The position numbers were made by a program, and so were the translations under genes. The notes under the pieces are model-generated. The model saw only the letters and a program-made list of their open reading frames with translations, was not told the origin of the DNA and ran no database searches. A stretch of DNA of 64,000 bases. Source: an uncultured Myxococcales bacterium (lineage in GTDB: Bacteria; Myxococcota_A; UBA9042; CAIXZC01). How positions within the stretch are numbered: position 1 is the first letter of the stretch; each line of letters starts with the position of its first letter. Shown here in pieces: positions 23,038-35,707 of this stretch. The DNA lies in contig CAITUV010000063.1 of the NCBI GenBank assembly GCA_903895725.1, positions 51,902 through 115,901 on the forward strand, in the 5' to 3' direction.

Positions 23038-26000
23038 ATGAAGCCCAGCATCCCAGGTTCGGCGTGTTTGGCCAGGCTCGCCAGTCCCCTCGGTTTCCCG
23101 GCGCTGATACTTTGCGTGGCGCTTTCATCGGCCTGCGGCGCCAAGTCCGACGGGTCGGACGTGCCTGCCCCGAGCGACACAGAGGGGGCGGAGGTGCCTG
23201 CCCCGAGCGACACAGAGGGGGCGGACGTGCCTGCCCCGGGCGACGTTGAAGGGTCGGACGTGCCTGCCGCGGGCGACGTCGAGGGTTCGGACGTGCCTGC
23301 CCCGAGCGACGTCGAGGGTTCGGACGTGCCTGCCCCGAGCGACACAGAGGGGGCGGATGTGCCGGACGTCTGCCCTGCTCCACCCCCCGGTCCCCACGCC
23401 CGTCTGTGCGAGATCGGCTGCGACGGCCCGGAGTCCTGTGGCGACGGCAACATGTGCCTCCAGTTCCAGGACATCGGCCAGTTCTTCTGTGCGACCCCCT
23501 GCACCGGAGTCCCCCCCTCCTGCCCGTTCGGCTTCTACTGTGCGGATGTGAGCGGCAAGTCGATGTGCGTCCCGTCGTCCGGAGATTGCCGCACCGCCCT
23601 CCTCGGAGTCGACTGCAACGCGCTCGAATCGGACCTCGCCGGCCTGTGCAAAAACGACTATCCTGTCTGCACGTCCACCGACTGGCGTCCCGGCTACTGC
23701 ACGGCTGCGTGCGATACGGACGCAGACTGCCCCGGAGCCTTCCGCCGCTGTCTGCCCACTCCGGATCCCTGCCTTCCCCCCAAGGTCTGTCGGGCCGCAT
23801 GGGAGTCGGGCCCCGAAGGCTGCGGGGTGGTCTCGGGGGACAGTGCGGGCAATGGGTCGTCCTGTCGGGACGACGACGATTGCATGCCCGACCAGGATTG
23901 CGTCAAGCCCCCGTTCGAACAGAAGCTGCGCCCCTTCTGCGCGGCCGCCTGCAACCTCGACGGCGACTGCCCTGCGGGGACCGTGTGCGAGGACGTCGCA
24001 GGAAGCAAGCGGTGCATCCCTCCCTCTTGCCAGTGCCTGCTGTCGAACGGCTCCCTCTACGATCAGGTGCTCGAGGCTCTGGAGCTCCCCCGCTGCAAAG
24101 CCATGTTCCGACGGGACTGGCTGATGCTTTTCCCCTATGCCCTCTCGCACGATCCCTGGCGCCTGCGTCACTTCCACGACCTGCACGACTTCCCCGAAGC
24201 TGCGCTGCCCGCCGCATCCGATGACGTCGCCGGCCTGGTCGCCAAGAAGGGCCCGGAGCGCGTCGTCGAGGCCATCCGAAAGAGCATGACGCTCATCGAG
24301 CGCACCGAAGACTACTCGTTTCTTCCCGCCGAAGCCCCCGACGGCCCGGCGGACGCAGTCGCCACGTTCATTCTGGCTGCGGGCGGGACCCCCGACTCGG
24401 CCAAGCTCTCCCTCGCGCTCGCCCCTCTCCCGAGCGAGCTGGCACCTGCATTCACTGACATCGTGACGGCCATGACCGGCGCCGTTTACGCCCGCAAACA
24501 GGCATCGAAGACGCTCGGTGACACCGAGCTCGAGAAGTACCTCTTCGACCTGACCCACGGCTTTGTCGCCATCCCCAAGAGCAAGCTGGGGCTTCCTGCC
24601 GGCAACAAGGACGTACAGAAGGCGCTGCTCGGCAAGTTCGATGTCGGCTTGATCGGGTCTGCTGCCATCGTGCTTGCGGAAACTGTCGAGGCCGCCTTCG
24701 ACAAGGGGCAGCTTGCCCCCGATGCCAAGTACACCGGCTTCTCCATCAAGATCGACACGCCGGCGGGCCTGATCCTCGTGGGAGACAACGGCGACACGAC
24801 CTGGGATGCCCAGGAGCTCGGTACCTCCGAGATCGCACTGCTTATCGATACAGGCGGGAACGACACCTACCGGATTCCGGCCGGAGCGAACGCCACGCTG
24901 GACAATCCCGTGTCGATTCTCATCGATCTGTCGGGCAAGGATGACTACGGATACGTCGAGGCCGCCCCGGCACTCGACCCGCTTCTGCTCCCCGAGGACG
25001 AGGACGGACGATACACCCCCAAGAAGCCGCCCAACGAGGACAACGGGCCGTTCTCTCTCTCGGACCGCAACCGTCAGGGGAGCGGACGGCTCGGGGTCGG
25101 GATGCTGTACGACCTCGGCAGCGATGTCGACCACTACGCTTCCCTCCGCCTGTCGCAGGGATTCGGCGTGCTCGGGGTAGGCGTCCTCTACGACGCCGGC
25201 GGCGACGACTTCTACGATGCCGAAGCCGCATCCCAGGGTGCGGGCATCTTCGGAATCGGAATCCTGGCCGATGACGGCGGAGACGACCTCTACACCGCGT
25301 TCCAGTGCGTGCAGGGGTTTGCCTACGCGTACGCCGTTGGCATCCTGCTGGACCAGGCGGGCAACGATGGCTACACCGCTCGTCTCGGCGACCCGGCAAT
25401 GGGCGGCTACCCGCTCTACTATAATCCGCAAAACCCTGGAAAATCAAATACTTCCATGTCTCAAGGGTTTGGTTTCGGCCGTCGGGCGGACATGACCGAC
25501 GGCGTGTTCATGTCCGGTGGATTCGGCATCCTGGTGGACCAGGCCGGGGACGACGTGTACCAGGCGGACATCTTCGGCCAGGGCGGCGGCTACTGGTTCG
25601 GTACCGGGATCCTGGCAGACCAGGGAGGCAGTGACTCCTACTCCGGACGCTGGTACGTGCAGGGAGCCGCTGCCCACTACGCCACCGGGATCCTGCTGGA
25701 GGGGAGCGGCGACGACCTGTACAACCCCGACCCGTCCATTCCGCTGCTCAACGCCAGCGTTGGCCTGGGGCACGACTGGTCGCTGGGAATCCTGCACGAC
25801 AAGGCGGGCAACGACGACTACCGTGCCCCGAGCCTTGCCGTCGGGGCTGGCAACGCGGACGGCCTCGGCTTCCTCGTCGACGGACAGGGGGACGATTCCT
25901 GGTGGTCCTCCGCCAACAACACGTTCGGGCATGCCAACGCTGGGGACTACGCCAAGTACCCGGTCTTCGAGACCTTTCCCTGCATCGGCATCTTCCTGGA

Positions 26001-26160
26001 CGGCGGCGGCCAGGATGCGTACGAGCGTCCCGACATGACGACCGTGTTGCTGGAGGACGATTCCGTCTGGGTCAACCCGGCCCCGAACAGCCTCCCGGAC
26101 ATCGAGAAGGGAGGCGGTGCTGACGGAAACGGAGCTCCGGTCGGCTTTGCCGGTCTATAG
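23038..26160 (+). CDS. Large lipoprotein: 11-aa repeat linker, Cys-rich region, about 12 C-terminal GxLxDxxGxDxY repeats
   Basis: Lipobox LSSAC; repeats such as GILADDGGDDLY, GILVDQAGDDVY, GILHDKAGNDDY. Confidence 0.85.
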   Translation: MKPSIPGSACLARLASPLGFPALILCVALSSACGAKSDGSDVPAPSDTEGAEVPAPSDTEGADVPAPGDVEGSDVPAAGDVEGSDVPAPSDVEGSDVPAPSDTEGADVPDVCPAPPPGPHARLCEIGCDGPESCGDGNMCLQFQDIGQFFCATPCTGVPPSCPFGFYCADVSGKSMCVPSSGDCRTALLGVDCNALESDLAGLCKNDYPVCTSTDWRPGYCTAACDTDADCPGAFRRCLPTPDPCLPPKVCRAAWESGPEGCGVVSGDSAGNGSSCRDDDDCMPDQDCVKPPFEQKLRPFCAAACNLDGDCPAGTVCEDVAGSKRCIPPSCQCLLSNGSLYDQVLEALELPRCKAMFRRDWLMLFPYALSHDPWRLRHFHDLHDFPEAALPAASDDVAGLVAKKGPERVVEAIRKSMTLIERTEDYSFLPAEAPDGPADAVATFILAAGGTPDSAKLSLALAPLPSELAPAFTDIVTAMTGAVYARKQASKTLGDTELEKYLFDLTHGFVAIPKSKLGLPAGNKDVQKALLGKFDVGLIGSAAIVLAETVEAAFDKGQLAPDAKYTGFSIKIDTPAGLILVGDNGDTTWDAQELGTSEIALLIDTGGNDTYRIPAGANATLDNPVSILIDLSGKDDYGYVEAAPALDPLLLPEDEDGRYTPKKPPNEDNGPFSLSDRNRQGSGRLGVGMLYDLGSDVDHYASLRLSQGFGVLGVGVLYDAGGDDFYDAEAASQGAGIFGIGILADDGGDDLYTAFQCVQGFAYAYAVGILLDQAGNDGYTARLGDPAMGGYPLYYNPQNPGKSNTSMSQGFGFGRRADMTDGVFMSGGFGILVDQAGDDVYQADIFGQGGGYWFGTGILADQGGSDSYSGRWYVQGAAAHYATGILLEGSGDDLYNPDPSIPLLNASVGLGHDWSLGILHDKAGNDDYRAPSLAVGAGNADGLGFLVDGQGDDSWWSSANNTFGHANAGDYAKYPVFETFPCIGIFLDGGGQDAYERPDMTTVLLEDDSVWVNPAPNSLPDIEKGGGADGNGAPVGFAGL
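23152..23364 (+). repeat. In-frame 33-bp tandem repeat, about 6.5 copies (G[SA]DVPAPSD[TV]E)
   Basis: Direct inspection of DNA and translation. Confidence 0.9.
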
Positions 26161-26255
26161 GCCCCGCTCGAGACAGAGCTGCCCCGAGCTGACTCCGGGG
26201 AGGACAGGCGACGGGGTGCGACAGAACGTGGGGAAGCACCCCTGACAGACCGGCA

Positions 26256-27128
26256 ATGCCCGGTGGGAGGTCCAACGTGTCCAGAACAGTCGTGATTGCC
26301 CTCCTGGCCGGCCTGCTGGGGGCAGCGCTCGCAACGGGCACCATCCTGCTCCTCTACGGGCCGCCCGGAAGCCGGCCGACCTCCGGCGCATCCGTCCGGC
26401 CGGACCCCGCTGAGTCGGACGTGAGCGACCTTTCCGAGGACGTCGAGGACGACGCTACGTTGCCGGGCGAAACCCTCGAATTCGACCCGTCCTCCCGCAC
26501 ACCGCCCGCGCCGAGCCCCGCTCCGGTTTCCCCGCCATCCCCCTCCGCCGGGCCCGTCTCGCCGTCGCCCCCGGCCGTCGCCCCCTCGCCTCCCCAGCCC
26601 CTTGGGGTCGCGTCATCGTCCCAATTGGCTGCGCCGGCTGCCTCGGGCCCATCCCATCCCCCCGTCCCCTCAGGTCCCCCGGCGTCGGGGGGTACCCCGG
26701 CCGCCCCGGTCGCCGAGCCCCCGGGCCACCCGCTGGCACCTCCGTCTTCCGAGCCGGCCTCGTCGAGCTCTGGCGACGTCGTCTCCGACGTCCCGGAAGT
26801 GGAAGAGGCCCCCCTGGTCTGGGACATTGACAAGGAATCGATCCACCAGGCCCTCGTTTCCCAGATGCCCAAGTTCAAGGAGTGCTACTCGGCATGGGCT
26901 GCCATGCAGCCCGACCTGGCCGGGCGCCTCAAGATTGGCTTCACCATCGGCCGGGCCAATCCTGGAGACGAGAACGCATCGGTGATCCAGGCCGACGTGC
27001 TCGATTCCCAGCTCGACAACGAGTTCTTCCAAGGGTGCATCCTGCGGACGGTCGAGGACTTGAAGTTCGTCCCTCCCGAAGGAATCATCCGTGTCAACAT
27101 CCCCTATGTCTTCCGCCAGGAGGAGTGA
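26256..27128 (+). CDS. Single-TM protein with Pro-rich linker and AgmX/PglI-type TonB_C-like C-terminal domain
   Basis: N-terminal TM; IHQALVSQMPKFKECY..LAGRLKIGFTI..CILRTVEDLKF..VNIPYVF. Confidence 0.8.
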   Translation: MPGGRSNVSRTVVIALLAGLLGAALATGTILLLYGPPGSRPTSGASVRPDPAESDVSDLSEDVEDDATLPGETLEFDPSSRTPPAPSPAPVSPPSPSAGPVSPSPPAVAPSPPQPLGVASSSQLAAPAASGPSHPPVPSGPPASGGTPAAPVAEPPGHPLAPPSSEPASSSSGDVVSDVPEVEEAPLVWDIDKESIHQALVSQMPKFKECYSAWAAMQPDLAGRLKIGFTIGRANPGDENASVIQADVLDSQLDNEFFQGCILRTVEDLKFVPPEGIIRVNIPYVFRQEE

Positions 27129-27132
27129 GCCC

Positions 27133-30100
27133 ATGCATTCCCGAGCTCCCGACTCAGCGAGAGGCTGGCCATCGACTGCGGCTCCGGCCGTCCTCGTCGC
27201 GCTGTTCCTCGCCCTGTCCGCCGCCGACGTCCAGGCCCAGGTCTTCTCGTCGGACCGTCCCGGCGGCGTCACGCTCGCCCCCCTTGGCACCAAGGACAGC
27301 CTGAACAACTGGTCGCTGGGTACCAGCGGAATCGTCGGCTGTACCGGTGGCCCCGCGTTCATGCTGACCGTTGCCACCCAGGGGTCGATCTTCGCGGTCA
27401 GCGACGGCATGTTTGACGGCATGCCCTATGTCTGGCCCATCGCCTCCATGGAGGACCTGGGCGACGCACTGGCCGGCAGCTCGGTCTACCAGATCAACGC
27501 GGTCGCGTCGACCCCGTCCCGGGACCTCATCTACGTGGGCTTCCAACCTGTCGCCTGGACGGCTGCCGTGCCCATCGTGAGCGTCGATCTCCACGGCGAG
27601 GTCACCCCGGTCGTCACCTCGGCCGAGCTCGAAGAGGTCGCCGGTCCCGGCGCCGCCGTCATGGCGCTCTCCGTCGCTCCCGATGAAACCCTCTATGCCT
27701 CGATGAGGTCGCAGGTGGAAGGTACCCTCATCGAGATCCACCCGGACCAGCCGGAGGGGCAGCGGGTCAGTGCGCGGCTCACCACCGACGATCTGCTGAG
27801 CGAGCTCCCTGCCGTGAGCCACGATATCCCCTGGATTTGGGGCAACTCCATCGCATCGGACGGGCAGGGCAGGGTTCTGTTCCAGGCCGACGTGGTCCCT
27901 GAGGGAGGCGATGATCCCCTCTGCGTCCTCATCCGCCTCGATCCGGACGGTACGCTCGTCGAGATGACCTCACGGGAGGGGGAGATCCCCGCCCTTCCCA
28001 GCTATGACTTCAACGTCCCCGACTACCCCTGCCAGAGCACCCGGGAAGGGCTCGTCTATGATCCCGTGTTCGACCTCGTGGTGGGCGTCGGCAACGGCAT
28101 GTGGTTCCTCTCCCCCGACGAGCCGGGCAAGGCAGACCTCGTGCTCCAGCCGTTTGCCATCGAGAGCCTCGTGTACGAGCTCATCGGGCCGGACTATGTC
28201 AATCACCAGCCCAGCCCCGCGGCCCCCGGCAACTGCCTGGGCTTCATCGGTGCCCAGGGGGTCCGGGTCTACGGCTCGATGAAATGGATCCTCTACGGCG
28301 TGGCCCTCGACCCCCTTCGCCTCGACCTCGATCGGGACCTCCTGCTCGGGGAGGAAGAGGGGGTCTGGGGAACAGACCCCGTCGAGGCCGATTCCGACGG
28401 CGGGGGCCTCGTGGATGGAGCCGAGGTGCTCGACCACACCGACCCGCTCGACCCTGCCGACGACCGCGTCCTCCCGTCCTTCTCCGACCGCTGGAGCATG
28501 TCCGCACGATTCTGGGGATCCCGGTTCTGGGACGCGTTTGCCGGCACCTTCAACCGGTACGTCGTGGCGAAACCGGACGGCAGCCTCCTCTTCTCGGTAT
28601 GGGGCAACCAGCCGGGGCGCTGCACCGTGGCCCGCTGGACCGACTGGGACCACCCCGCCCAAATGCTGTCCCAGGGGGCCTGCGAGTCCCACCAGGAGCT
28701 CGACAAGGACGGAAACATCCTGTGCGACTACGACACCCCGTCGTCCGGTGCCGCCACACACCCCGTCGACGGATCCCCCGCTGCCCCTCTTGTCGATCCG
28801 GCCGTCCAGGACGTGCTCGTCGGCGATTCGAACGTCACGGGGATTGCCGCCCGCCCCGACGGAACCCGCTTCGTGGCCTACGAGAACGGCCGGCTGCTTC
28901 GTATCGAGCCGGATGGCTCCGCAGCGCTCCTCTACGACTCCCATGAGGACCTGCTGAAATCGGGGACCATCGACGAGAACGACGGGTGCTTTTCCTGCTG
29001 CACCTGCTCCGCCCCTCTCGGCCCTATCGTCTACGAGCCGGTCCGCTCGATCGTGTACGTCTGGGTCAACTTCACCCTCTACTATGGGAGCACGTCCTTG
29101 TCGCCCATCCTGGTGGCCGTCCTGCCGGACAACTCCCTCCGGATCATCGTCGAGGCCGACATCTTCCGCCCGTTCCAGGCTCAGCTCGGCGGCCAGAGCA
29201 TCGTGGACGTGGAGCCCGACATGTCCGGAGGCCTCTGGGTCCTGACCACCTCCGGAATCGACCGTTCTCTTGCCCGCCTCGATGCCAACATGGTCCTCCA
29301 TACCGACCCCTGGTTCGCCACTCCCGTTGGCATCACCGGCCCTGGCGGCCCCGGTGACATCCCCTGGTGGGCCCTGGCTCACGCAGACGACATCGCCGTG
29401 ACCCCCGATGGCCGGGTCTTCCTCCTCCCCATGTACAGCTACGAGCAGTACCCCCCCGCCTACTTTCCCTCCGAGCTCATCTCGGTCGAGCCTGTGGTCC
29501 GGGCCGGCGACATCCTCTCCGTCCACCCGCAGGAAAAGGGCCTTGGCAAGCTCGACCCCCGAGGCGGTGGCATCAACCTCGTCTTCGAGGGAGATCTTCA
29601 GCGCCCCGTCTCCGTTGCCGGGACCGTCGAGAAGGTCGTCGTCGCCGACGCCGACCGCCACGAGCTGCTGGTCTATGAGCTCAAGAAAGACGGATCGCTC
29701 AAGAAGCCTGCCCCTCTCGGACAGATCCAGGAGCCGGGCGGAATCGACATCGATGCCGACGGCAGCATCCTCGTCGTGGACCGGGCAGCCAAATCCGTGC
29801 TGCGCGTCGAGTCCGACGGCACACAGACCCCCGCAGTCCAGGGCAACCCCTTTGCTGACCCCCGTGACGTGGTCGCCCTCCGGTCCGGCGAGCTCGCAGT
29901 CTCGGACAATTCCGCCGGGAGCATCTTCCTGGTCGGAGCCGACCGCGTCGCCAAGCCGGTGGCCTCGGCTCCCGGGGCCGATGCTCTGACCGTCATCGAC
30001 GGTCTGGCATGGGTCGTCTCCACCCCGGCGGACAAGCTCCCTCCGCTTCGCATCGCGTCGGACGGCCAGACCCGTCTGGGCAGCAAGGTCCCCCAGGAGC

Positions 30101-31548
30101 TCGCCTATCTGGACAACCCCGGCGGCATGAGCGCAGACCTGGAGGGGAACGTGTTCTGGATCGTCTGGGGCGGCTTCCACTTTGACTCGGTCTACAACGC
30201 CTCCCAGACTCGGGTCCTGCGCCTGACGCCAGACGGCTACATGTCTCCCATGGTTCGCTCCGGCCTGCCGTCCACCCAGACCCCGGGAGACGTCTACGTC
30301 GTCCGCTCAAGCGACGCACAGCTTCCCCGTCTCCCCGGCGAGGTCGAGCCTCCCCCTCCGTTCGTCGAGGCCGTCGACGGAGCCGACGTCGCCACTCATC
30401 AGGACATCGCCCCGGCGGATACCATCGACGGTTCCCCTTCTCCCTCTACTTCGGGTGGCTGCAGCGCAGCTCCGATCCGCTCTGCACGGTTCAGCAGGGT
30501 GCTCCCCGCCGCCGGACTGCTGGCGCTCATCTGCTTCCTCGGTTTCCTGGCCCTCGTGCGGTACGGTCGCTTCGGGCGTCATAAGTCGGCGGGTGACGCA
30601 ACATCGCGGGAGTTGTGTCGCTCCGGGCGTCATAAGTCGGCGGATGATGCAACATCGCGGGAGTTGTGTCGCTCCGGGCGTCATAAGTCGGCGGATGATG
30701 CAACATCGCGGGAGTTGTGTCGCTCCGGGCGTCATAAGTCGGCGGATGTTCTGGCGCCGGCCCTCGGCCTGCTCCTTCTCCTGGGGCTTGTCAGCCTGCC
30801 GGGATGCTCTTCTCCCCGCACCCCGTCACCGGGAGACGTCACGACCGACGGCGGAGCAGAGGCCTCCGTGGGGGACGCCCGGTATGCGCCTGAAACCATC
30901 CCCCCCGAGTGCAAGGGGAAGGACCTCTGTCCTCCCGGCATCGACCCGGTCTGTGCGGGTCCGACCAGCAGCAGGAGCTGCCATCTCGACCAGGACGGAT
31001 GCTATGTCTGGTCCAAGGAAATCGTCTGCCCTGGCGGTGTGGCGTGCAAGGACGGGATGTGTCAGATCTGCTTCCCGAACTGTCGGGGCCTCCAGTGCGG
31101 CGATGACGGATGCGGCGGCTCCTGCGGGGAATGCGCCGCTCCGGAGACCTGCTGCAACGGCTTTTGCGCCCCCTGCAAGGTGGATTGCTCCGGCAAGGCC
31201 TGCGGCGACGACGGGACGGGCGGCACCTGTGGCAAGTGCCCGGCAAACTTCGTCTGCTCCAAGGGTAAGTGCTTCCAGCCCGGCACCGGGACGTGCGTGG
31301 ACTACTTCGAGTGTTCGTCCTCCTGCCCGGAGTGGAGCGACCCCTGCTGGGAAGACTGCGAGTCCTATGCCTCGGACCAGGCCAGGTATCAGGCCACCCT
31401 TCTCAACGCTTGCACCCTCGAGCAGTGCGCCCCCTGCCTGGACATGAAGCCGCGTGACAAGGCCCTCGAGTGCCTGGACGAGTGCGCCCTCGAGTACTGT
31501 TCAGCACCTCACGACGCTTGCGTCAACGACATTCCCCCGAACACGTAG
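27133..31548 (+). CDS. Very large exported protein: NHL/beta-propeller repeats, Ca-binding DxDxDG-like motif, internal MYXO-CTERM-like signal, repeat linker, second lipobox, Cys-rich tail
   Basis: AGGAG before ATG 27133; signal peptide ending VQA; TDPVEADSDGGGLVDGAEV; SGGCSAAP plus TM; LVSLPGC; CGDDGCGGSCG repeats. Confidence 0.8.
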   Translation: MHSRAPDSARGWPSTAAPAVLVALFLALSAADVQAQVFSSDRPGGVTLAPLGTKDSLNNWSLGTSGIVGCTGGPAFMLTVATQGSIFAVSDGMFDGMPYVWPIASMEDLGDALAGSSVYQINAVASTPSRDLIYVGFQPVAWTAAVPIVSVDLHGEVTPVVTSAELEEVAGPGAAVMALSVAPDETLYASMRSQVEGTLIEIHPDQPEGQRVSARLTTDDLLSELPAVSHDIPWIWGNSIASDGQGRVLFQADVVPEGGDDPLCVLIRLDPDGTLVEMTSREGEIPALPSYDFNVPDYPCQSTREGLVYDPVFDLVVGVGNGMWFLSPDEPGKADLVLQPFAIESLVYELIGPDYVNHQPSPAAPGNCLGFIGAQGVRVYGSMKWILYGVALDPLRLDLDRDLLLGEEEGVWGTDPVEADSDGGGLVDGAEVLDHTDPLDPADDRVLPSFSDRWSMSARFWGSRFWDAFAGTFNRYVVAKPDGSLLFSVWGNQPGRCTVARWTDWDHPAQMLSQGACESHQELDKDGNILCDYDTPSSGAATHPVDGSPAAPLVDPAVQDVLVGDSNVTGIAARPDGTRFVAYENGRLLRIEPDGSAALLYDSHEDLLKSGTIDENDGCFSCCTCSAPLGPIVYEPVRSIVYVWVNFTLYYGSTSLSPILVAVLPDNSLRIIVEADIFRPFQAQLGGQSIVDVEPDMSGGLWVLTTSGIDRSLARLDANMVLHTDPWFATPVGITGPGGPGDIPWWALAHADDIAVTPDGRVFLLPMYSYEQYPPAYFPSELISVEPVVRAGDILSVHPQEKGLGKLDPRGGGINLVFEGDLQRPVSVAGTVEKVVVADADRHELLVYELKKDGSLKKPAPLGQIQEPGGIDIDADGSILVVDRAAKSVLRVESDGTQTPAVQGNPFADPRDVVALRSGELAVSDNSAGSIFLVGADRVAKPVASAPGADALTVIDGLAWVVSTPADKLPPLRIASDGQTRLGSKVPQELAYLDNPGGMSADLEGNVFWIVWGGFHFDSVYNASQTRVLRLTPDGYMSPMVRSGLPSTQTPGDVYVVRSSDAQLPRLPGEVEPPPPFVEAVDGADVATHQDIAPADTIDGSPSPSTSGGCSAAPIRSARFSRVLPAAGLLALICFLGFLALVRYGRFGRHKSAGDATSRELCRSGRHKSADDATSRELCRSGRHKSADDATSRELCRSGRHKSADVLAPALGLLLLLGLVSLPGCSSPRTPSPGDVTTDGGAEASVGDARYAPETIPPECKGKDLCPPGIDPVCAGPTSSRSCHLDQDGCYVWSKEIVCPGGVACKDGMCQICFPNCRGLQCGDDGCGGSCGECAAPETCCNGFCAPCKVDCSGKACGDDGTGGTCGKCPANFVCSKGKCFQPGTGTCVDYFECSSSCPEWSDPCWEDCESYASDQARYQATLLNACTLEQCAPCLDMKPRDKALECLDECALEYCSAPHDACVNDIPPNT
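30568..30748 (+). repeat. In-frame 51-bp tandem repeat, about 3.5 copies (RSGRHKSADDATSRELC)
   Basis: Units start at 30568, 30619, 30670 and 30721 (partial). Confidence 0.95.
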
Positions 31549-31742
31549 AAGCCGTGTCGACGAGCCGGACCGGAAGGGGATCCGTCCGACCGATGCATCT
31601 TGGCAGCGGGCGAGTTCGCCCTGCAGGCAGCCGGCTCGGAGGCGAGCCCCCCTGTTGCCGTCGATCGTGGCATCCGCACCGAGGTTGCAAACCTGACCCC
31701 GAGTCCGTAAACTCCGACTCAACTGAGAGGAGGTGCTCGCCA

Positions 31743-33275
31743 ATGAGGAACATGCGGCTGTTGTCTATCCTGCTCCTGGCCGGTCTGTCCGGCTCGTGCG
31801 GCGACCGGCCCGACCCATTCGAGTCCTGGGAGGCCCCCCAGGGACCGTACATCGTCTCCAACCAGGTCGCCTACCTGGACAAGAACTGGGACGAGCTGGT
31901 CGTGCTCGGAGTCGAGAAGAAGGATCCGACGCCCACGGTGCAGCGCATCCCGGTCGAGGCCGAGGCCTCCGTCATCGGCACCCTCACCTCCGTCGACTCG
32001 CTGCTCCTGCGCGTCCCCGGAACCGGGCGCATCCAGAGCGTCAAGCCCGCCCTTGCCGAGGTCACCGACTATGACCTCGAGAGCCCGTTCGATCGGTTCC
32101 TCATCCGCCAGGATCCGCCCACGCTGGCGGCCTGGTTCAGCGAGAATGCCCAGGCCGGCGATTCTGCGGTCCTGTTCAGCAAGGGGGACGTAGCCTTCGT
32201 CGACCTCACCAGGAAGAAGGATGCGGTCACCCGTTTCACGCTGCCCACTTACGGCGGAGCGCCCCTGGGGGTCGAGATCGCAGACACGGTGCCGGCCGCA
32301 TCCGGAAGCCGGCGCTTCGCATTCGTCCGGTGGAACTCCTTTCTCTCCCTGGTCGACATCGACAACTCGAAGCTGAAGGAGACTGCAATTCCTCTCAAGG
32401 CCCCCGATTCGGACGCCCAGGTGTTGCCCCTGCCGCTCCAGTTCGTGACCGGCTCGAGTCACCTGACCGCGCTCTTCCTCGCCCAGGCCAGCCCCGACCT
32501 CTACGTCCTCGACGTCGATGCCGAAGCGGCCCAGGGAGCGGGTACCGGAGTCTCCCTCAACGTCTTCCCGACCGCACAGGGGGCCTCGACGTTCAAGACC
32601 TTCATGGACAAGGACAACCTGCTCACCGTGCTGGTGCTCTGCCCCGGCTCCAGGACCGCCGCCGTCGTTCGGCCCGAGACGTCGGATGTCCTCCTCTACC
32701 CCCTCGACTTCACCGCCCACGACGTCACCGTGTTCACCATGCCCGTCGAGGACGGCAAGGAAGAACGCTTCGCCTTCCTGTTCAGCAGCAGCGGCGATTC
32801 CTATGGCTACTATTTCGTCGAGCTCGACCACCTGGCCGACAAGAAGAGCAAGGCCTTCCACCTCTTCAACCTGCCTGCCCCGGTCCGCCGGGTCTACATG
32901 GTCGACAAGGATCGGTTCCTGGTGATGCACTCGAGCGGCTCGTCCCCCATGTCGCTCGTGACCGTCTCCTCGGGCGAGGTGATCTCTCTGGGAGGCATCC
33001 CCAACCTGTTTGCCGAGGTGTTCGCTCCGGACGGCACCACTTTGTACGCGCTCAGCCAGTCGGGCCGCATCGTCCGCTTCGACACCGCCGACTTCTCGGC
33101 CTCGAGCATCGACGTCAAGCACGTGGTCAGCCCGGGCAGTCTGAGACTCGTGGCCGACAAGGGGCTCCTCTTCGCCTGGGACGACAACGGCCTGGTCGTG
33201 GCACCGGACGACTTCGAAACCGCCAGCGACGCGGTGGAGATCGCCCAGCCCGTCCTGTTCGGCCTGGACCGCTAG
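31743..33275 (+). CDS. Hypothetical lipoprotein, predicted beta-propeller
   Basis: GAGGAGG RBS; lipobox LSGSC; repeated short beta-strand pattern. Confidence 0.8.
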   Translation: MRNMRLLSILLLAGLSGSCGDRPDPFESWEAPQGPYIVSNQVAYLDKNWDELVVLGVEKKDPTPTVQRIPVEAEASVIGTLTSVDSLLLRVPGTGRIQSVKPALAEVTDYDLESPFDRFLIRQDPPTLAAWFSENAQAGDSAVLFSKGDVAFVDLTRKKDAVTRFTLPTYGGAPLGVEIADTVPAASGSRRFAFVRWNSFLSLVDIDNSKLKETAIPLKAPDSDAQVLPLPLQFVTGSSHLTALFLAQASPDLYVLDVDAEAAQGAGTGVSLNVFPTAQGASTFKTFMDKDNLLTVLVLCPGSRTAAVVRPETSDVLLYPLDFTAHDVTVFTMPVEDGKEERFAFLFSSSGDSYGYYFVELDHLADKKSKAFHLFNLPAPVRRVYMVDKDRFLVMHSSGSSPMSLVTVSSGEVISLGGIPNLFAEVFAPDGTTLYALSQSGRIVRFDTADFSASSIDVKHVVSPGSLRLVADKGLLFAWDDNGLVVAPDDFETASDAVEIAQPVLFGLDR

Positions 33276-33284
33276 GAGGATACC

Positions 33285-34016
33285 ATGCGAAACGGACTGA
33301 TTCCCTGCAAGGCCTTCTCGGCCATTCTGCTCGCCCTGGCGCTCGTGGCGCCTCTCCAGGCCCTGGCGGAAGAGGACTTCCTCGAAGTCCACCTCACCGG
33401 TGGCTTCGAAACCGTGCTCACCCAGGATGGCGGGTTCGACTACGTCTCCAAGACCGACTGGATGGCGACCGGCACCGTCGCCGCAGAAGTGGAAGTCTGG
33501 GACGAGCTCTTCGTCCGCCTGGCCCTCGCCTCGGGCGATTCCTCCGAGTACTTCTACGACAACTACTTCGCCTCCCTCTCCATCGTGGAACCCCAGCTCG
33601 GCCTGCGCAAGGGGTACTCCATCGTCGAGGGGATCCGCCCCTACGTCGCGGCCATCGCCACCTACACCGTGGCGGACGTGGACATCGACCTGACGTCCGA
33701 GACCGGCATCTCCCGTGATTCGGGCATCGGTGACGGACGGTTTGGAGGCAAGTTCTCGGGCGGCGTCGAGCTGTTCCTCCCCCGCCGGGTCTTCCACGGC
33801 AAGGGAGAGCGCAGCGGCTTCTTCAAGGACTTCACCCTCGGGATGTCCGTCGAGTGCGGATACGCGCTTCGGCAGGCGATCCCGCTGAGCGGACTCTCGC
33901 AGGAGAAGGAGCAGGGCACCACGGGGAAGGACTCGATGATCCCGGGACGGCACGATCTCGGCGACCTTTCCCTGTCCGGCTTTTTCATCGCCGGCGACTT
34001 CCGCTTCATGTTCTAG
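33285..34016 (+). CDS. Probable outer-membrane beta-barrel protein
   Basis: Signal peptide ending LQA-LA; alternating amphipathic strands; C-terminal FRFMF. Confidence 0.75.
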   Translation: MRNGLIPCKAFSAILLALALVAPLQALAEEDFLEVHLTGGFETVLTQDGGFDYVSKTDWMATGTVAAEVEVWDELFVRLALASGDSSEYFYDNYFASLSIVEPQLGLRKGYSIVEGIRPYVAAIATYTVADVDIDLTSETGISRDSGIGDGRFGGKFSGGVELFLPRRVFHGKGERSGFFKDFTLGMSVECGYALRQAIPLSGLSQEKEQGTTGKDSMIPGRHDLGDLSLSGFFIAGDFRFMF

Positions 34017-34027
34017 GAGGTGACGAG

Positions 34028-35707
34028 ATGAAGACCTTGCAGACAAGAGCACTTTCGGCCCTCCTTCTGGCGCTCGTGCCGCTGGCCATGGCCCTGTACG
34101 GAGCAGGCTGCGGGGCCGGCGGGATGGATACCGGGGCCGCATACGAATCCGACTGGGGCGGCGCTGGCGGCGGTCAGGGCGGGTACGAAGATACCCTTTC
34201 CCCTGCTGGGGACGTTGCTGCCTCAGCGGACTACGGCCCTCCGCCTACTCCCGAGGAGGAGATGCTCCTCAACCTCAAGGCCCCGCAGGCCAGCCAGAAC
34301 TACGTCTACATCGCAGCCACGGACCGGGATTCCCTCGTGCGGATCAGCGCGGACGACCCGCCCCAGATCGACATCATCCCGGTCGGAGGACACCCCACCG
34401 TCGTCGCCACCGTCCCCGGCTCCGACACCGCACTCGTCATCAACTCCGGAACGCAGGACGTCTCGATCGTGCGCACCCAGGACGGCAAGGACGACGTCAC
34501 CACCCTCGACGTCCTCCCCTATGTCAACCTCCTGGCCGTGTCGCCGGACGGCAAGTACGCCATCGCCTACTACAATGACCTGGCCGCCGAGCCCGGCGAC
34601 CCCGTCGGCGACTTCCAGACCATCTCCGTCATCATCCTCGAGGAGGGCAAGGACCAGGCCCGCCTCGTCTCCACAGGCTTCCACATCACCGAGATCTACT
34701 TCCACCAGAGCAAGTCGATCGCCTATCTCGTCACCAACGACGGCATCTCGGTGCTCGAGCTGGACAAGGTCAAGGACGGCGTGATCACGCCGATCATCCC
34801 GGTCTCCGAGGACCCCCTGGACGACCCCGAGATGCGGGAGGTCCTGATCACCGAAGACGGGGACTTCGCCGTCGTCCGCAACCTCGCCGAGCCCGTTGTC
34901 TCCGTCGTCGACCTCGAATCCGAGCTCATCGTGACCACGGAAGTCAAGGGACTCCCCACCGACGTCGACCTCATCCCCGGAGTCGACAAGGTGCTCCTCA
35001 CCCTGCGCGAGCAGGGGCTCGCCTACGTGGGCGACCTCGAGAAGCTCCAGGCCGGCGACGACGACGCCCTGATCTCCATCGACATCCAGGGGAGCCAGGC
35101 CGGCGCCGCAGTCGTCACGGCCGACGGGACCCGGGCCGTGCTGTACACCACGGTCGGGATGGTCAAGGCCGTTGCCGTGATGGACCTTGACGACGCAGCG
35201 TACCCCTGGAAGTCCTGGCCCCTCCAGAAGGGGGTCGTGGGCGTGGCCGTCTCCGACAAGGGCTCGACCGCCGTCATCTTCCACCAGGCCGAAGGCTACA
35301 CCGCCGGCTCCAGCGACGTCGAGAAGACCATCGCTGCCACCGAGGGGTTCACCCTGTTCAACATCGAGTCCGGCTATCGCAAGCTCATCCAGACCGAGCA
35401 CCGCTACACCCAGCACCTGTTCGTCGCAGACAAACAGAAGGGGGACCTGGCCGCCTACGTGCTCACTCCCGACCCTTACGGAGGGGCCTTTGGCGTGACC
35501 CACTCGGTCCAGGCCGCGGTCCTGTCCACCTACATCTCGACCCCCATCCCCATCGCGTCCGAGCCCGTGGCCATGGTCTTCATCCCCCAGGCCCGCAAAG
35601 TCGCCGTCGCCCAGGACCACCAGAACGGACGCATCACGTTCATCGACGTGGATACGGGCAAGACCTGGTCGGTCACCGGCTACGAGATCAACGGCATGAT
35701 CCACTGA
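34028..35707 (+). CDS. Lipoprotein with YVTN/YncE-like beta-propeller
   Basis: GGAGG RBS before ATG 34028; lipobox YGAGC; IPVGGHP, LAVSPDGKYAIAY, VAVSDKG blades. Confidence 0.82.
   Translation: MKTLQTRALSALLLALVPLAMALYGAGCGAGGMDTGAAYESDWGGAGGGQGGYEDTLSPAGDVAASADYGPPPTPEEEMLLNLKAPQASQNYVYIAATDRDSLVRISADDPPQIDIIPVGGHPTVVATVPGSDTALVINSGTQDVSIVRTQDGKDDVTTLDVLPYVNLLAVSPDGKYAIAYYNDLAAEPGDPVGDFQTISVIILEEGKDQARLVSTGFHITEIYFHQSKSIAYLVTNDGISVLELDKVKDGVITPIIPVSEDPLDDPEMREVLITEDGDFAVVRNLAEPVVSVVDLESELIVTTEVKGLPTDVDLIPGVDKVLLTLREQGLAYVGDLEKLQAGDDDALISIDIQGSQAGAAVVTADGTRAVLYTTVGMVKAVAVMDLDDAAYPWKSWPLQKGVVGVAVSDKGSTAVIFHQAEGYTAGSSDVEKTIAATEGFTLFNIESGYRKLIQTEHRYTQHLFVADKQKGDLAAYVLTPDPYGGAFGVTHSVQAAVLSTYISTPIPIASEPVAMVFIPQARKVAVAQDHQNGRITFIDVDTGKTWSVTGYEINGMIH

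What the first reader, a model, noticed from the sequence alone, without database searches (positions are those of the whole stretch)
27133..31548. Candidate bacterial polyprotein: two export signals in one ORF
Seen: signal peptide, ~1090-aa propeller-rich ectodomain, then SGGCSAAP (30454-30462) plus a TM and basic residues, which looks like a complete MYXO-CTERM-like sorting signal, but the frame continues. A basic repeat linker follows, then a second hydrophobic segment ending in lipobox LPGC (Cys 30805) and a 245-aa Cys-rich domain. Known: MYXO-CTERM signals are normally C-terminal and cleaved; lipoboxes are normally N-terminal. Inference: out-in-out topology processed by a sortase-like protease and Lgt/LspA, giving two surface proteins in 1:1 ratio. 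Alternative: internal TTG initiation near 30715 would give a normal lipoprotein (MCRSGRHKSADVLAP..LPGC), although the SD spacing is poor.
Basis: partly seen in the sequence, partly recalled or inferred. Interest (0 to 1): 0.7.

Follow-up and report, generated by a model that had tools for sequence, protein, structure and literature searches.

The report
Two lipid-anchored proteins from one gene
One myxobacterial gene encodes two secreted proteins joined by a two-helix membrane hairpin made of a normally C-terminal sorting tag and a normally N-terminal lipoprotein signal, so the cell probably cuts one precursor into two lipid-anchored proteins; single cases of this layout have been published, but no cut has been shown.

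Summary
Window 27133-31548 (+) is one 1471-codon frame. It has a signal peptide, a three-propeller ectodomain, Gly-Gly-Cys (30454-30462), TM1, a basic loop, TM2 ending in LPGC (Cys codon 30805), and a 247-aa Cys-rich module.

The layout is conserved, not an accident of this assembly. All 12 distinct full-length relatives found carry both modules in one frame, including a paralog in the same genome, at 30-70% identity. In the 11 aligned, both junction Cys are invariant. No relative ends at the tag. An independent assembly is identical except for one repeat unit fewer.

The "basic repeat linker" is an in-frame insertion of a genome-wide 51-nt palindromic tandem repeat (38 arrays, otherwise intergenic) into the cytoplasmic loop.

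The genome holds about 20 ORFs with an internal MYXO-CTERM-like tag followed by a new signal peptide, against about 56 terminal tags. It also encodes myxosortase MrtP, five Lgt paralogs and LspA.

Best reading: a membrane polyprotein cut by myxosortase and by Lgt/LspA.

Precedent exists: MXAN_5598 (mBio 2025) and Haloferax HVO_0405. I therefore rate this a new variant of a known, rare kind.

The parts
27119..27125 (+). Shine-Dalgarno GGAGGAG, 7 nt before the ATG; the upstream gene's TGA is at 27126-27128
   Evidence: Sequence read directly.
27133..27237 (+). N-terminal type I signal peptide (residues 1-35). Predicted cut is VQA|Q, and the mature end Q-V-F is conserved in the family.
   Evidence: Translation. 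The family consensus is A-x-A-Q-V-F.
27238..30357 (+). Module 1: ectodomain of three beta-propeller-like blocks (about residues 45-395, 455-720 and 750-1060), with a TSP3-type Asp-rich calcium-binding linker at 399-454
   Evidence: Pfam NHL and TSP3_bac. AF2 model with pLDDT 71. Foldseek matches to multi-propeller proteins.
30358..30453 (+). Low-confidence Pro/Asp/Ser-rich stalk before the tag (residues 1076-1107)
   Evidence: pLDDT below 50 for residues 1075-1109.
30454..30462 (+). Gly-Gly-Cys signature of the MYXO-CTERM-like tag. Cys1110 is invariant in the 11 aligned family members.
30499..30558 (+). TM1 (VLPAAGLLALICFLGFLALV), predicted N-out/C-in
   Evidence: Translation. It passes the hydropathy criterion of my own scan.
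30559..30747 (+). Cytoplasmic basic loop (63 residues, net about +7). It serves as both the basic tail of the tag and the n-region of the lipoprotein signal. It is 4-10 residues long in most relatives.
30566..30748 (+). In-frame insertion of 3.6 copies of a dispersed 51-nt palindromic tandem repeat (183 nt = 61 codons; GC3 0.61 against 0.83-0.85 in the flanks). An independent assembly has 2.6 copies.
   Evidence: TRF. Genome-wide family of 38 arrays. GC3. L034 comparison. Fold z-score -4.5.
30748..30807 (+). TM2 / h-region (VLAPALGLLLLLGLVS) and lipobox L-P-G-C. Cys1225 (30805-30807) is invariant in the 11 aligned family members.
30808..30879 (+). Disordered Ser/Pro/Gly/Asp tether after the lipobox Cys
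   Evidence: pLDDT below 50 for residues 1-25 of the module-2 model, which starts at Cys1225 (30805), one codon before this part.
30880..31548 (+). Module 2: Cys-rich domain with small disulfide-rich beta-hairpin units carrying CGDDGCGGSCGxC repeats, then a Cys-rich helical bundle; stop at 31546-31548
   Evidence: AF2 pLDDT 71. No Pfam, NCBIfam or PDB match. The repeat is common in Myxococcota proteins.

Best explanation
Window 27133-31548 is one real gene for a two-module membrane precursor, a bacterial 'polyprotein'.

Shown:
- It is a single conserved frame.
- Between the modules lies a helical hairpin.
- The outgoing arm is a MYXO-CTERM-type tag: Gly-Gly-Cys, then a TM helix, then basic residues.
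- The returning arm is a lipoprotein signal: basic residues, a hydrophobic h-region, then a lipobox Cys.
- The two arms share one cytoplasmic basic loop.

Inferred route:
1. The N-terminal signal peptide takes module 1 (three propellers) through Sec and is cut by signal peptidase I.
2. TM1 stops transfer. TM2 re-starts it, so module 2 also reaches the periplasmic side.
3. Lgt acylates Cys1225 and LspA cuts in front of it. This frees module 2 as an ordinary N-terminally lipidated lipoprotein.
4. The tag Cys1110 is lipidated and the genome's myxosortase (MrtP) cuts behind it. This frees module 1 as a C-terminally lipid-anchored protein, which can go to the cell surface as published for TraA.
5. 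The TM1-loop-TM2 hairpin is waste. That would explain why its loop varies from 4 to 63 residues and has tolerated an in-frame insertion of a mobile 51-nt repeat here.

The likely benefit is obligatory co-expression of two partners of one surface complex. The gene sits in a conserved cluster with an outer-membrane barrel gene and two downstream genes, at least one encoding a lipoprotein.
For: - The frame is single and open. An independent ENA assembly (L034) is 100% identical over the gene except for one repeat unit fewer.
- All full-length relatives found are fused. These are the paralog G000:C43:394516-399024, G002:C230, P0005 and P0014, and P0124-P0129 and P0257 from a search of 1.84 billion representatives. 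None ends at the tag.
- In the 11-sequence alignment both junction Cys columns are invariant, while the loop is hypervariable.
- G/S/P/D-rich, low-confidence stretches flank both Cys on the periplasmic side, as in lipid-tethered proteins.
- TIGR03901 aligns over almost its whole length to the paralog's tag (17.4 bits) and to G002's tag (13.7 bits).
- In the own genome there are about 56 terminal tags, 14 credible tag+lipobox junctions and about 6 tag+type-I-signal junctions. The reversed-sequence control gives 1. These junctions join unrelated modules: matrixins, MopE repeats, SGL and BNR propellers.
- The genome encodes MrtP (NF040674, 289.6 bits, cut-off 250), five Lgt paralogs, LspA and secretins.
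- Stand-alone lipoproteins with the same class of Cys-rich module exist: P0284, P0291, P0297.
- Published basis: MrtX cleaves MYXO-CTERM in a manner that depends on the conserved Cys. Internal MYXO-CTERM in MXAN_5598 was proposed to be processed. An internal archaeosortase tag is processed in Haloferax (PMC11980579 and its ref. 46).
Against: - No cleavage has been observed for this protein or any relative.
- The window's own tag is not recognised by TIGR03901, nor by an HMM I built from the genome's 56 terminal tags. It has a long Arg-containing spacer between the Cys and TM1.
- The window's lipobox has Pro at -2 (LPGC), outside the canonical pattern.
- To my knowledge, Lgt/LspA action on a signal whose n-region is tethered to an upstream TM helix has not been demonstrated.
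- The enzyme that lipidates MYXO-CTERM is still unknown (PMC11980579).
- That the repeat insertion kept the frame is only weak evidence of selection. The chance of an open, in-frame array is roughly 0.2.
Confidence: 0.6

Rival explanations
1. The precursor is not cut at the junction. The hairpin is a permanent inner-membrane anchor holding two periplasmic domains, and the two Cys have another role such as a disulfide or metal binding.
For: No cleavage data exist. The window's tag fails TIGR03901 and my own tag HMM. LPGC is a non-canonical lipobox. Hairpin-anchored proteins with large periplasmic domains are common (general knowledge).
Against: Both Cys sit exactly where lipidation and cleavage sites sit in stand-alone tags and lipoprotein signals. 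They are invariant across 30-70% identity, while everything between them drifts in length and sequence. The same junction joins many unrelated module pairs. Both Cys are flanked by tether-like disordered linkers. The module-2 class occurs elsewhere as an ordinary lipoprotein.
Confidence: 0.18
2. Only one of the two signals is used. LspA releases module 2 as a lipoprotein, while module 1 stays in the inner membrane on the leftover TM1-loop-TM2 hairpin. In this reading the tag-like segment is just a stop-transfer helix. The converse, with only the tag being cut, is also possible.
For: The lipoprotein arm is canonical in most relatives: LAAC, LLAC, VAAC, LVAC, VAGC. The window's tag arm is the weaker match.
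Against: The tag Cys is as invariant as the lipobox Cys. Relatives' tags align to TIGR03901 over nearly the full model. The genome has a bona fide myxosortase and about 56 terminal tags.
Confidence: 0.15
3. Two independently translated proteins. Module 2 starts at an internal codon (TTG 30715, giving MCRSGRHKSADVLAP...LPGC), and the fused frame is incidental.
For: TTG 30715 would give a textbook lipoprotein signal. In one other junction of this genome (C7), an AGGAG-type Shine-Dalgarno and an ATG survive inside the loop.
Against: The upstream frame has no stop, so the fusion protein is made in any case. The TTG belongs to the repeat unit and recurs in each complete copy, with GGGAG abutting it at zero spacing. 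Most relatives have loops of 4-10 residues with no start codon or ribosome-binding site. No promoter-like site lies in 30200-31800.
Confidence: 0.04
4. Artefact or decay. Two neighbouring genes were joined by a mis-assembled repeat array or by recent loss of a stop codon, making this a pseudogene-like accident.
For: 17 of the 38 arrays of this repeat lie at contig ends, so it does disturb assembly. Copy number differs between two assemblies.
Against: Relatives that lack the repeat have the same fusion. The flanks are identical in an independent assembly. GC3 is 0.83-0.85 on both sides in the same frame. Synteny is conserved with the P0005 locus.
Confidence: 0.03

Closest known systems
MXAN_5598 of Myxococcus xanthus (internal MYXO-CTERM; Guo, Haft & Wall, mBio 2025, PMC11980579)
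   Same: It has a large adhesin-like N-terminal region followed by an internal MYXO-CTERM motif and a second envelope module in one ORF. The authors propose it arose by gene fusion and that the N-terminal part is processed and surface-anchored.
   Different: It is described as a rare, single case with no experiment. Its second module is an outer-membrane barrel with an OmpA domain, and no lipobox directly after the tag is described in the passages I read. Here the tag abuts a lipoprotein signal and shares its basic cluster, the layout is fixed across a whole family, and about a quarter of this genome's tags are internal.
MYXO-CTERM / myxosortase sorting (TraA, MrtX; TIGR03901, NF040593/NF040674)
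   Same: The tag is tripartite: an invariant Cys in a Gly/Ser context, a TM helix and a basic cluster. There is an N-terminal signal peptide, many tagged proteins per genome, and a myxosortase gene.
   Different: The tag is not C-terminal. The window's copy is below the detection limit of TIGR03901. The genome's enzyme is of the MrtP type, not MrtX.
Haloferax volcanii HVO_0405, an ArtA substrate with a non-C-terminal tripartite tag (Abdul Halim et al. 2017, J Bacteriol; ref. 46 of PMC11980579)
   Same: It gives experimental precedent that a sorting tag in the middle of a protein is still recognised and cleaved.
   Different: It is archaeal, uses the PGF-CTERM/archaeosortase system and is a Tat substrate. 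I am not aware of a lipoprotein signal after its tag, though I did not read the paper.
Bacterial lipoprotein signal peptides (Lgt / LspA / Lnt pathway)
   Same: It has a positive n-region, an h-region of about 15 residues, a lipobox with an invariant Cys and a disordered tether after the Cys.
   Different: The signal is internal, and its n-region is tied to an upstream TM helix. The window's lipobox is LPGC, with Pro at -2.
Polyproteins cut at internal signal peptides: Bradyrhizobium FbcH (cytochrome b/c1), and bunyavirus and flavivirus glycoprotein precursors (from my own knowledge; the viral cases are also in PMC7926653, listed)
   Same: One precursor is threaded through the membrane more than once. 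A TM segment followed by a new signal peptide forms a hairpin, and membrane peptidases release separate mature proteins in fixed stoichiometry.
   Different: Those use signal peptidase I (or the host signalase) only. Here both cuts would be coupled to lipidation and carried out by two different intramembrane enzymes.

Membership tests
MYXO-CTERM sorting domain (TIGR03901; criteria listed in Haft 2023, bioRxiv 10.1101/2023.06.07.544157) | [quoted passage not shown] | tested here: not met
   The tag is at residues 1108-1149 of 1471, and 322 residues follow TM1.
MYXO-CTERM sorting domain (TIGR03901) | Signature motif with an invariant Cys at the start of the domain | tested here: met
   GGC at 30454-30462. 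The Cys column is invariant in 11 of 11 aligned relatives.
MYXO-CTERM sorting domain (TIGR03901) | Hydrophobic TM helix followed by a short cluster of basic residues | tested here: met
   VLPAAGLLALICFLGFLALV, then RYGRFGRHK. Relatives have RRRARR, RRRH, RSRR, RLRR and RRTRK.
MYXO-CTERM sorting domain (TIGR03901) | Score at or above the curated cut-off (20 bits) of the NCBIfam model | tested here: not met
   There is no hit for the window's tag. The paralog scores 17.4 bits and G002 13.7 bits, each over model positions 1-32 of 34.
MYXO-CTERM sorting domain (TIGR03901) | Multiple tagged proteins in the genome, an N-terminal signal peptide, and a myxosortase gene | tested here: met
   There are about 56 terminal tags. 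A signal peptide is present. MrtP is at G000:C86, around 79.3-79.6 kb: NF040674 289.6 bits (cut-off 250) and Mrt_core 134.5 bits (cut-off 100).
MYXO-CTERM sorting domain (TIGR03901) | Cleaved by myxosortase in a manner that depends on the conserved Cys | not testable with these tools
   This needs expression and Western or mass-spectrometry analysis.
Bacterial lipoprotein signal peptide (Sec/SPII) | Positive n-region and uncharged h-region of 7-22 residues directly before the Cys | tested here: met
   Basic loop, then VLAPALGLLLLLGLVSLPG.
Bacterial lipoprotein signal peptide (Sec/SPII) | Lipobox [LVI][ASTVI][GAS]C | tested here: inconclusive
   The window has L-P-G-C, and Pro at -2 is outside the pattern. 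Six of the 12 relatives' lipoboxes fit it (VAAC, LAAC x2, LLAC, LVAC, VAGC), while SLGC, SSSC, LVGC, VPAC and LCAC fall outside at -3 or -2. The Cys is invariant.
Bacterial lipoprotein signal peptide (Sec/SPII) | At the N-terminus of the precursor | tested here: not met
   The signal starts at about residue 1143.
Bacterial lipoprotein signal peptide (Sec/SPII) | Lgt and LspA present in the genome | tested here: met
   PF01790 is found at five loci and PF01252 at one locus.
Membrane polyprotein processed at internal signals (FbcH type, viral glycoprotein precursors) | Separate mature products demonstrated | not testable with these tools

The most novel reading that the evidence does not exclude
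Uncultured Myxococcota use natural membrane polyproteins as a routine design. A single hairpin carries two mirror-image 'lipidate-then-cut' signals: Cys-TM-basic read by a CPBP myxosortase, and basic-TM-Cys read by LspA. The two share one cytoplasmic basic cluster. One Sec substrate would then yield a C-terminally lipidated surface protein and an N-terminally lipidated lipoprotein in fixed 1:1 ratio. One of the genome's five Lgt paralogs might acylate both Cys. The discarded hairpin loop behaves like intergenic DNA and can host mobile repeats.
Probability: 0.45. Interest if true: 0.8.

Novelty: new variant of a known kind. Interest (0 to 1): 0.62.

Why it matters
If both cuts occur, this is a bacterial counterpart of viral glycoprotein polyproteins. 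It would be a genetically simple way to make two lipid-anchored envelope proteins in fixed stoichiometry.

It would also give a natural substrate for open questions in the myxosortase field. Which enzyme lipidates the MYXO-CTERM Cys? Lgt is the published candidate, and this genome has five paralogs. Do the tag and the lipoprotein signal work when neither is at a protein end?

For annotation it matters because such ORFs are currently called single 'hypothetical proteins'. Their internal tags are missed by models that expect a C-terminal position. In this genome about a quarter of all tags are internal.

The repeat insertion also shows that a dispersed non-coding repeat can persist inside a coding frame where the encoded peptide is probably discarded.

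Tried and rejected
No read-level check of 30400-30900, no check of copy number and no RNA evidence was possible. An independent assembly (L034) served as a partial substitute.
- The search for related loci on genome contigs chose the generic CGDDGCGGSC repeat as its pattern. It returned Myxococcota-wide Cys-rich proteins rather than family members. This was useful only for taxonomic context.
- An HMM built from the genome's 56 terminal tags was too weak. It found only 5 internal hits at i-E < 0.01 and did not hit the window junction. I therefore did not use it as support.
- The reversed-sequence control is not valid for terminal tags. It gave 46 'terminal' hits. I suspect, without checking, that reversed N-terminal lipoprotein signals mimic the tag. 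I used this control only for the fused class.
- Foldseek of module 2 against the PDB found nothing below E = 3. Pfam and NCBIfam also found nothing. The fold of module 2 therefore stays unassigned.
- Rfam found no family over 30300-31000. The promoter and terminator scan of 30200-31800 found none.
- The loop of orthologue P0005 contains 'ELCR', like the repeat peptide. Its DNA shows no significant similarity to the 51-nt unit, so I dropped the idea of a shared ancestral insertion.
- My script (GC3 on both flanks of all arrays) mishandled strands and is disregarded. replace it.
- I considered stop-codon reassignment and rejected it. The junctions contain no stop codon at all.

Full report
**Observation.** The ORF listing gives one open frame, 27091..31548 on the + strand. 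The likely start is ATG 27133. It lies 7 nt after GGAGGAG and 4 nt after the TGA of the upstream gene.

- A type I signal peptide, ...AADVQA|QVF.
- About 1070 residues of ectodomain.
- A Pro/Asp/Ser stalk.
- Gly-Gly-Cys at 30454-30462 (Cys1110).
- A 20-residue hydrophobic helix at 30499-30558.
- A 63-residue basic stretch.
- A second hydrophobic segment ending in L-P-G-C (Cys1225, codon 30805-30807).

Tandem Repeats Finder reports 3.6 copies of a 51-nt unit at 30566-30748.

**What the modules are.** Pfam sees only an NHL repeat and a bacterial TSP3 repeat in module 1, and nothing in module 2.

An AlphaFold2 model of residues 1-1109 was built on an 8-sequence alignment (mean pLDDT 71). It is almost all beta, in three blocks. 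A low-confidence Asp-rich linker spans 399-454 and a low-confidence tail spans 1075-1109. Its best PDB matches are multi-propeller proteins: megalin/LRP2, LRP6, Bacteroides BT4673, DDB1 and PorZ, with E down to 9e-21.

The model of module 2 (pLDDT 71) has a disordered first 25 residues. Small disulfide-rich hairpin units follow, then a helical bundle. It has no PDB match. Its CGDDGCGGSCGxC repeat is very common in Myxococcota proteins.

**The repeat.** The 51-nt unit is not peculiar to this gene.
- It matches 86 places in the window's own 7.06-Mb genome.
- These merge into 38 tandem arrays, 17 of them at contig ends.
- The unit matches both strands, and the array folds well (z = -4.5). No Rfam family matches.
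- Most of the 21 internal arrays begin within a few to some tens of bases of where a long open frame ends, or just before one begins.
- Four arrays are spanned by a long open stretch. Only the window's array has real coding sequence in that frame on both sides.
- Third-position GC is 0.61 in the array, against 0.85 and 0.83 in the two modules.

So the 'basic repeat linker' is a dispersed, normally intergenic repeat that sits in frame (183 nt = 61 codons) inside this gene. The unit is open in two of its three forward frames. An open in-frame array would therefore arise by chance roughly one time in five, which makes it only weak evidence of selection.

An independent ENA metagenome assembly (L034, a 190-kb contig) carries the same gene. 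It has no mismatch outside the array and exactly one unit fewer. That rules out a stop or frameshift peculiar to one assembly. It also shows copy-number variation or collapse.

**The decisive comparison.** They are not.
- A paralog in the same genome (C43:394516-399024, 35% and 42% identical to the two halves) has both halves in one 1503-codon frame. Its junction reads ...GTGCSAAGRGHEACALPLVLSLLVLAGLTRLRRTPIPSLPAVISASLLIALLCVAACSSSGG..., with no repeat.
- A homologue in another genus (G002:C230) reads ...GGGGGCAVGVGPGILPALPVVALLLLLLVAARRGWTKMIGLILVVLLAACGGAGG....
- The word-index search gave P0005 (70% identical overall, syntenic locus) and P0014.
- An exhaustive phmmer search of 1.84 billion cluster representatives with module 1 gave P0124-P0129 and P0257.

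Every full-length member (1418-1514 residues) continues past the tag into a lipobox and the Cys-rich module. No member ends at the tag.

In an alignment of 11 members, the tag Cys and the lipobox Cys are invariant. The loop between the helices ranges from 4 residues (RSRR) to 63. Both Cys are followed or preceded on the periplasmic side by Gly/Ser/Pro/Asp-rich, low-confidence stretches, like the tethers of lipid-anchored proteins.

Stand-alone lipoproteins with the same class of Cys-rich module exist (P0284, P0291, P0297). Module 2 therefore belongs to a class that ordinarily is a lipoprotein.

**Generality in this genome.** I scanned all 14,825 stop-to-stop ORFs of at least 200 residues. The pattern was G-x-C, a TM window, then a basic cluster. 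The scan finds:
- 56 tags within 25 residues of a stop.
- 15 internal tags followed by a second hydrophobic segment ending in a lipobox Cys, of which 14 are credible by eye. Reversed sequences give 1.
- About six more internal tags followed by a type-I-like signal peptide ending in AxA: C8 residue 246, C20, C31, C58, C61 and C63 outside the window.

One 891-codon ORF on C8 has two junctions and so three modules. The joined modules are unrelated: two matrixin domains, MopE repeats, and SGL or BNR propellers.

Most loops are tight, and their codons leave no room for a stop, a ribosome-binding site or a start. Two loops keep an in-frame ATG, and one of those also keeps a Shine-Dalgarno sequence. 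That looks like the scar of a fusion of neighbouring genes.

Several loops hold in-frame tandem repeats (C21, C43, C51 and the window). Four unrelated metagenomic proteins among my search hits have the same junction.

The homologue of module 1 in G020 is itself preceded, in frame, by another tag plus a signal peptide.

**Machinery.**
- The genome encodes a myxosortase that passes the NCBIfam equivalog cut-off for MrtP (289.6 bits against 250) and for the myxosortase core domain.
- It has five Lgt paralogs.
- It has one LspA, followed by two lgt genes in tandem.
- It has two secretin-containing loci.

**Mechanism.** The first arm of the hairpin has the three parts of a MYXO-CTERM tag. The second arm has the three parts of a lipoprotein signal. 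The basic cluster is shared and would sit in the cytoplasm, in line with the positive-inside rule (the loop is net about +7 here).

The most economical reading is as follows:
1. Sec exports module 1.
2. TM1 stops transfer.
3. TM2 restarts transfer.
4. Lgt and LspA release module 2 as a lipoprotein.
5. Lipidation of Cys1110 followed by myxosortase cleavage releases module 1, as shown for TraA and MrtX (PMC11980579).

The hairpin would be discarded. That fits its hypervariable loop and its tolerance of a mobile repeat. Everything after 'one conserved frame with two conserved signals' is inference. I put 0.6 on both cuts occurring.

The main rivals are an uncut hairpin anchor (0.18) and use of only one of the two signals (0.15). 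Internal initiation at TTG 30715 (0.04) is weak because:
- The TTG is part of the repeat unit and recurs in each complete copy.
- GGGAG abuts it with no spacing.
- Relatives with 4-10-residue loops have no start.
- The upstream frame never stops.
- No promoter-like or terminator-like site lies in 30200-31800.

Mis-assembly or decay (0.03) is contradicted by the repeat-free relatives and by the second assembly.

**Membership.** The window's tag meets the descriptive criteria of MYXO-CTERM. It has an invariant Cys, a TM helix, a basic cluster, an N-terminal signal peptide, many tagged proteins in the genome and a myxosortase gene. It fails two criteria: it is not C-terminal, and TIGR03901 does not detect it. 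The paralog and G002 tags align to nearly the whole model but score 17.4 and 13.7 bits, under the cut-off of 20. I therefore call it MYXO-CTERM-like.

The lipoprotein signal is canonical in about half of the relatives. The window's LPGC has Pro at -2. P0129 also has Pro at -2 (VPAC).

[quoted passage not shown] They discuss MXAN_5598, which has an adhesin, a tag, then an outer-membrane barrel with an OmpA domain. They treat it as a probable gene fusion whose N-terminal part is processed. They cite work on internal LPXTG and on a Haloferax ArtA substrate with a non-terminal tag.

A full-text search found no paper holding the term 'internal lipobox'. Functionally, the closest analogues are polyproteins cut at internal signal peptides. 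Examples are Bradyrhizobium FbcH (from my own knowledge) and bunyavirus glycoprotein precursors.

What is new here:
- The back-to-back tag and lipoprotein signal share one basic cluster.
- The layout is fixed across a whole family.
- Such junctions are frequent in one genome, about 20 against 56 terminal tags.
- A mobile repeat sits in the loop.

Earlier notes of this scan report the same junction type in at least 14 other genomes. I saw them after reaching my own reading. I count them as leads, not support.

**Verdict.** The feature is real. It is a new variant of a known, rare kind. Interest is 0.62.

Noticed in passing
window 30566-30748; also 37 other arrays in G000, e.g. C64:55210-55623, C75:27081-27432, C49:9175-9436, and the start of C63 (1-170): There is a genome-wide family of 51-nt, partly palindromic tandem repeats with 1-8 copies per array. 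17 of the 38 arrays lie at contig ends. Many arrays start within a few to some tens of bases of where a long open frame ends. No Rfam family matches. The array RNA folds with z = -4.5. Only the window's array lies inside a real coding frame.
   Followed up: partly
G000:C8:73247-75919 (-), locus L117: An 891-codon ORF has two internal tags, giving three secreted modules in one frame. The first tag is followed by a type-I-like signal (…RRRPAAARAGLLIGGAALCMAPAARA|S). The second is followed by a lipoprotein signal (…RQRRLVAVVLLALGLIAC|DA).
   Followed up: partly
G000:C20:128292-130076 (+), locus L122: A 595-codon ORF has two matrixin (Peptidase_M10) modules. The first ends in an internal tag plus a new signal peptide. 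The second ends in a normal terminal tag.
   Followed up: partly
G000:C36:43686-45883; also C43:290029-290859, C58:1041-1838, C43:131031-131771: The genome has five Lgt (PF01790) paralogs. lspA is followed directly by two lgt genes in tandem. This is of interest because Lgt is the published candidate for the unknown MYXO-CTERM acyltransferase.
   Followed up: no
L021 1-190 (G020:C339): In another family of the same class, the homologue of module 1 is itself the downstream module. Its signal peptide is preceded in frame by ...GGGGGGCAAGPAGPPVGAWLLLGLFVLLGLRGRGRH, an upstream MYXO-CTERM-like tag. The contig is short, so the upstream module is not seen.
   Followed up: no
G000:C43 (+) ORF at codon offset 14979; C53 (+) offset 48560; C47 (-) 630-codon ORF: Short in-frame tandem repeats, (GRI)n / (GRM)n and PTAHGSL x5, directly follow the basic cluster of several tags. 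They occur both before a stop and inside fused loops. The DNA just after tags appears to be a preferred home for simple repeats.
   Followed up: no
window 23038-35707; L035 and L036: The gene order is conserved with the 70%-identical orthologue. It runs: a 1040-aa Cys-rich lipoprotein, a small gene, the fused gene, a 510-aa lipoprotein, a 243-aa OMP_b-brl barrel, and a 559-aa protein. This suggests one envelope complex. Pfam finds nothing except the barrel.
   Followed up: partly
whole genome (script): Reversed protein sequences gave 46 'terminal tag' matches in my scan, though the hits themselves were not inspected. A likely reason is that a reversed N-terminal lipoprotein signal (Cys, hydrophobic stretch, basic residues, end) mimics a MYXO-CTERM tag. 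The two signals look like near mirror images, which may be why they pack into one hairpin.
   Followed up: no
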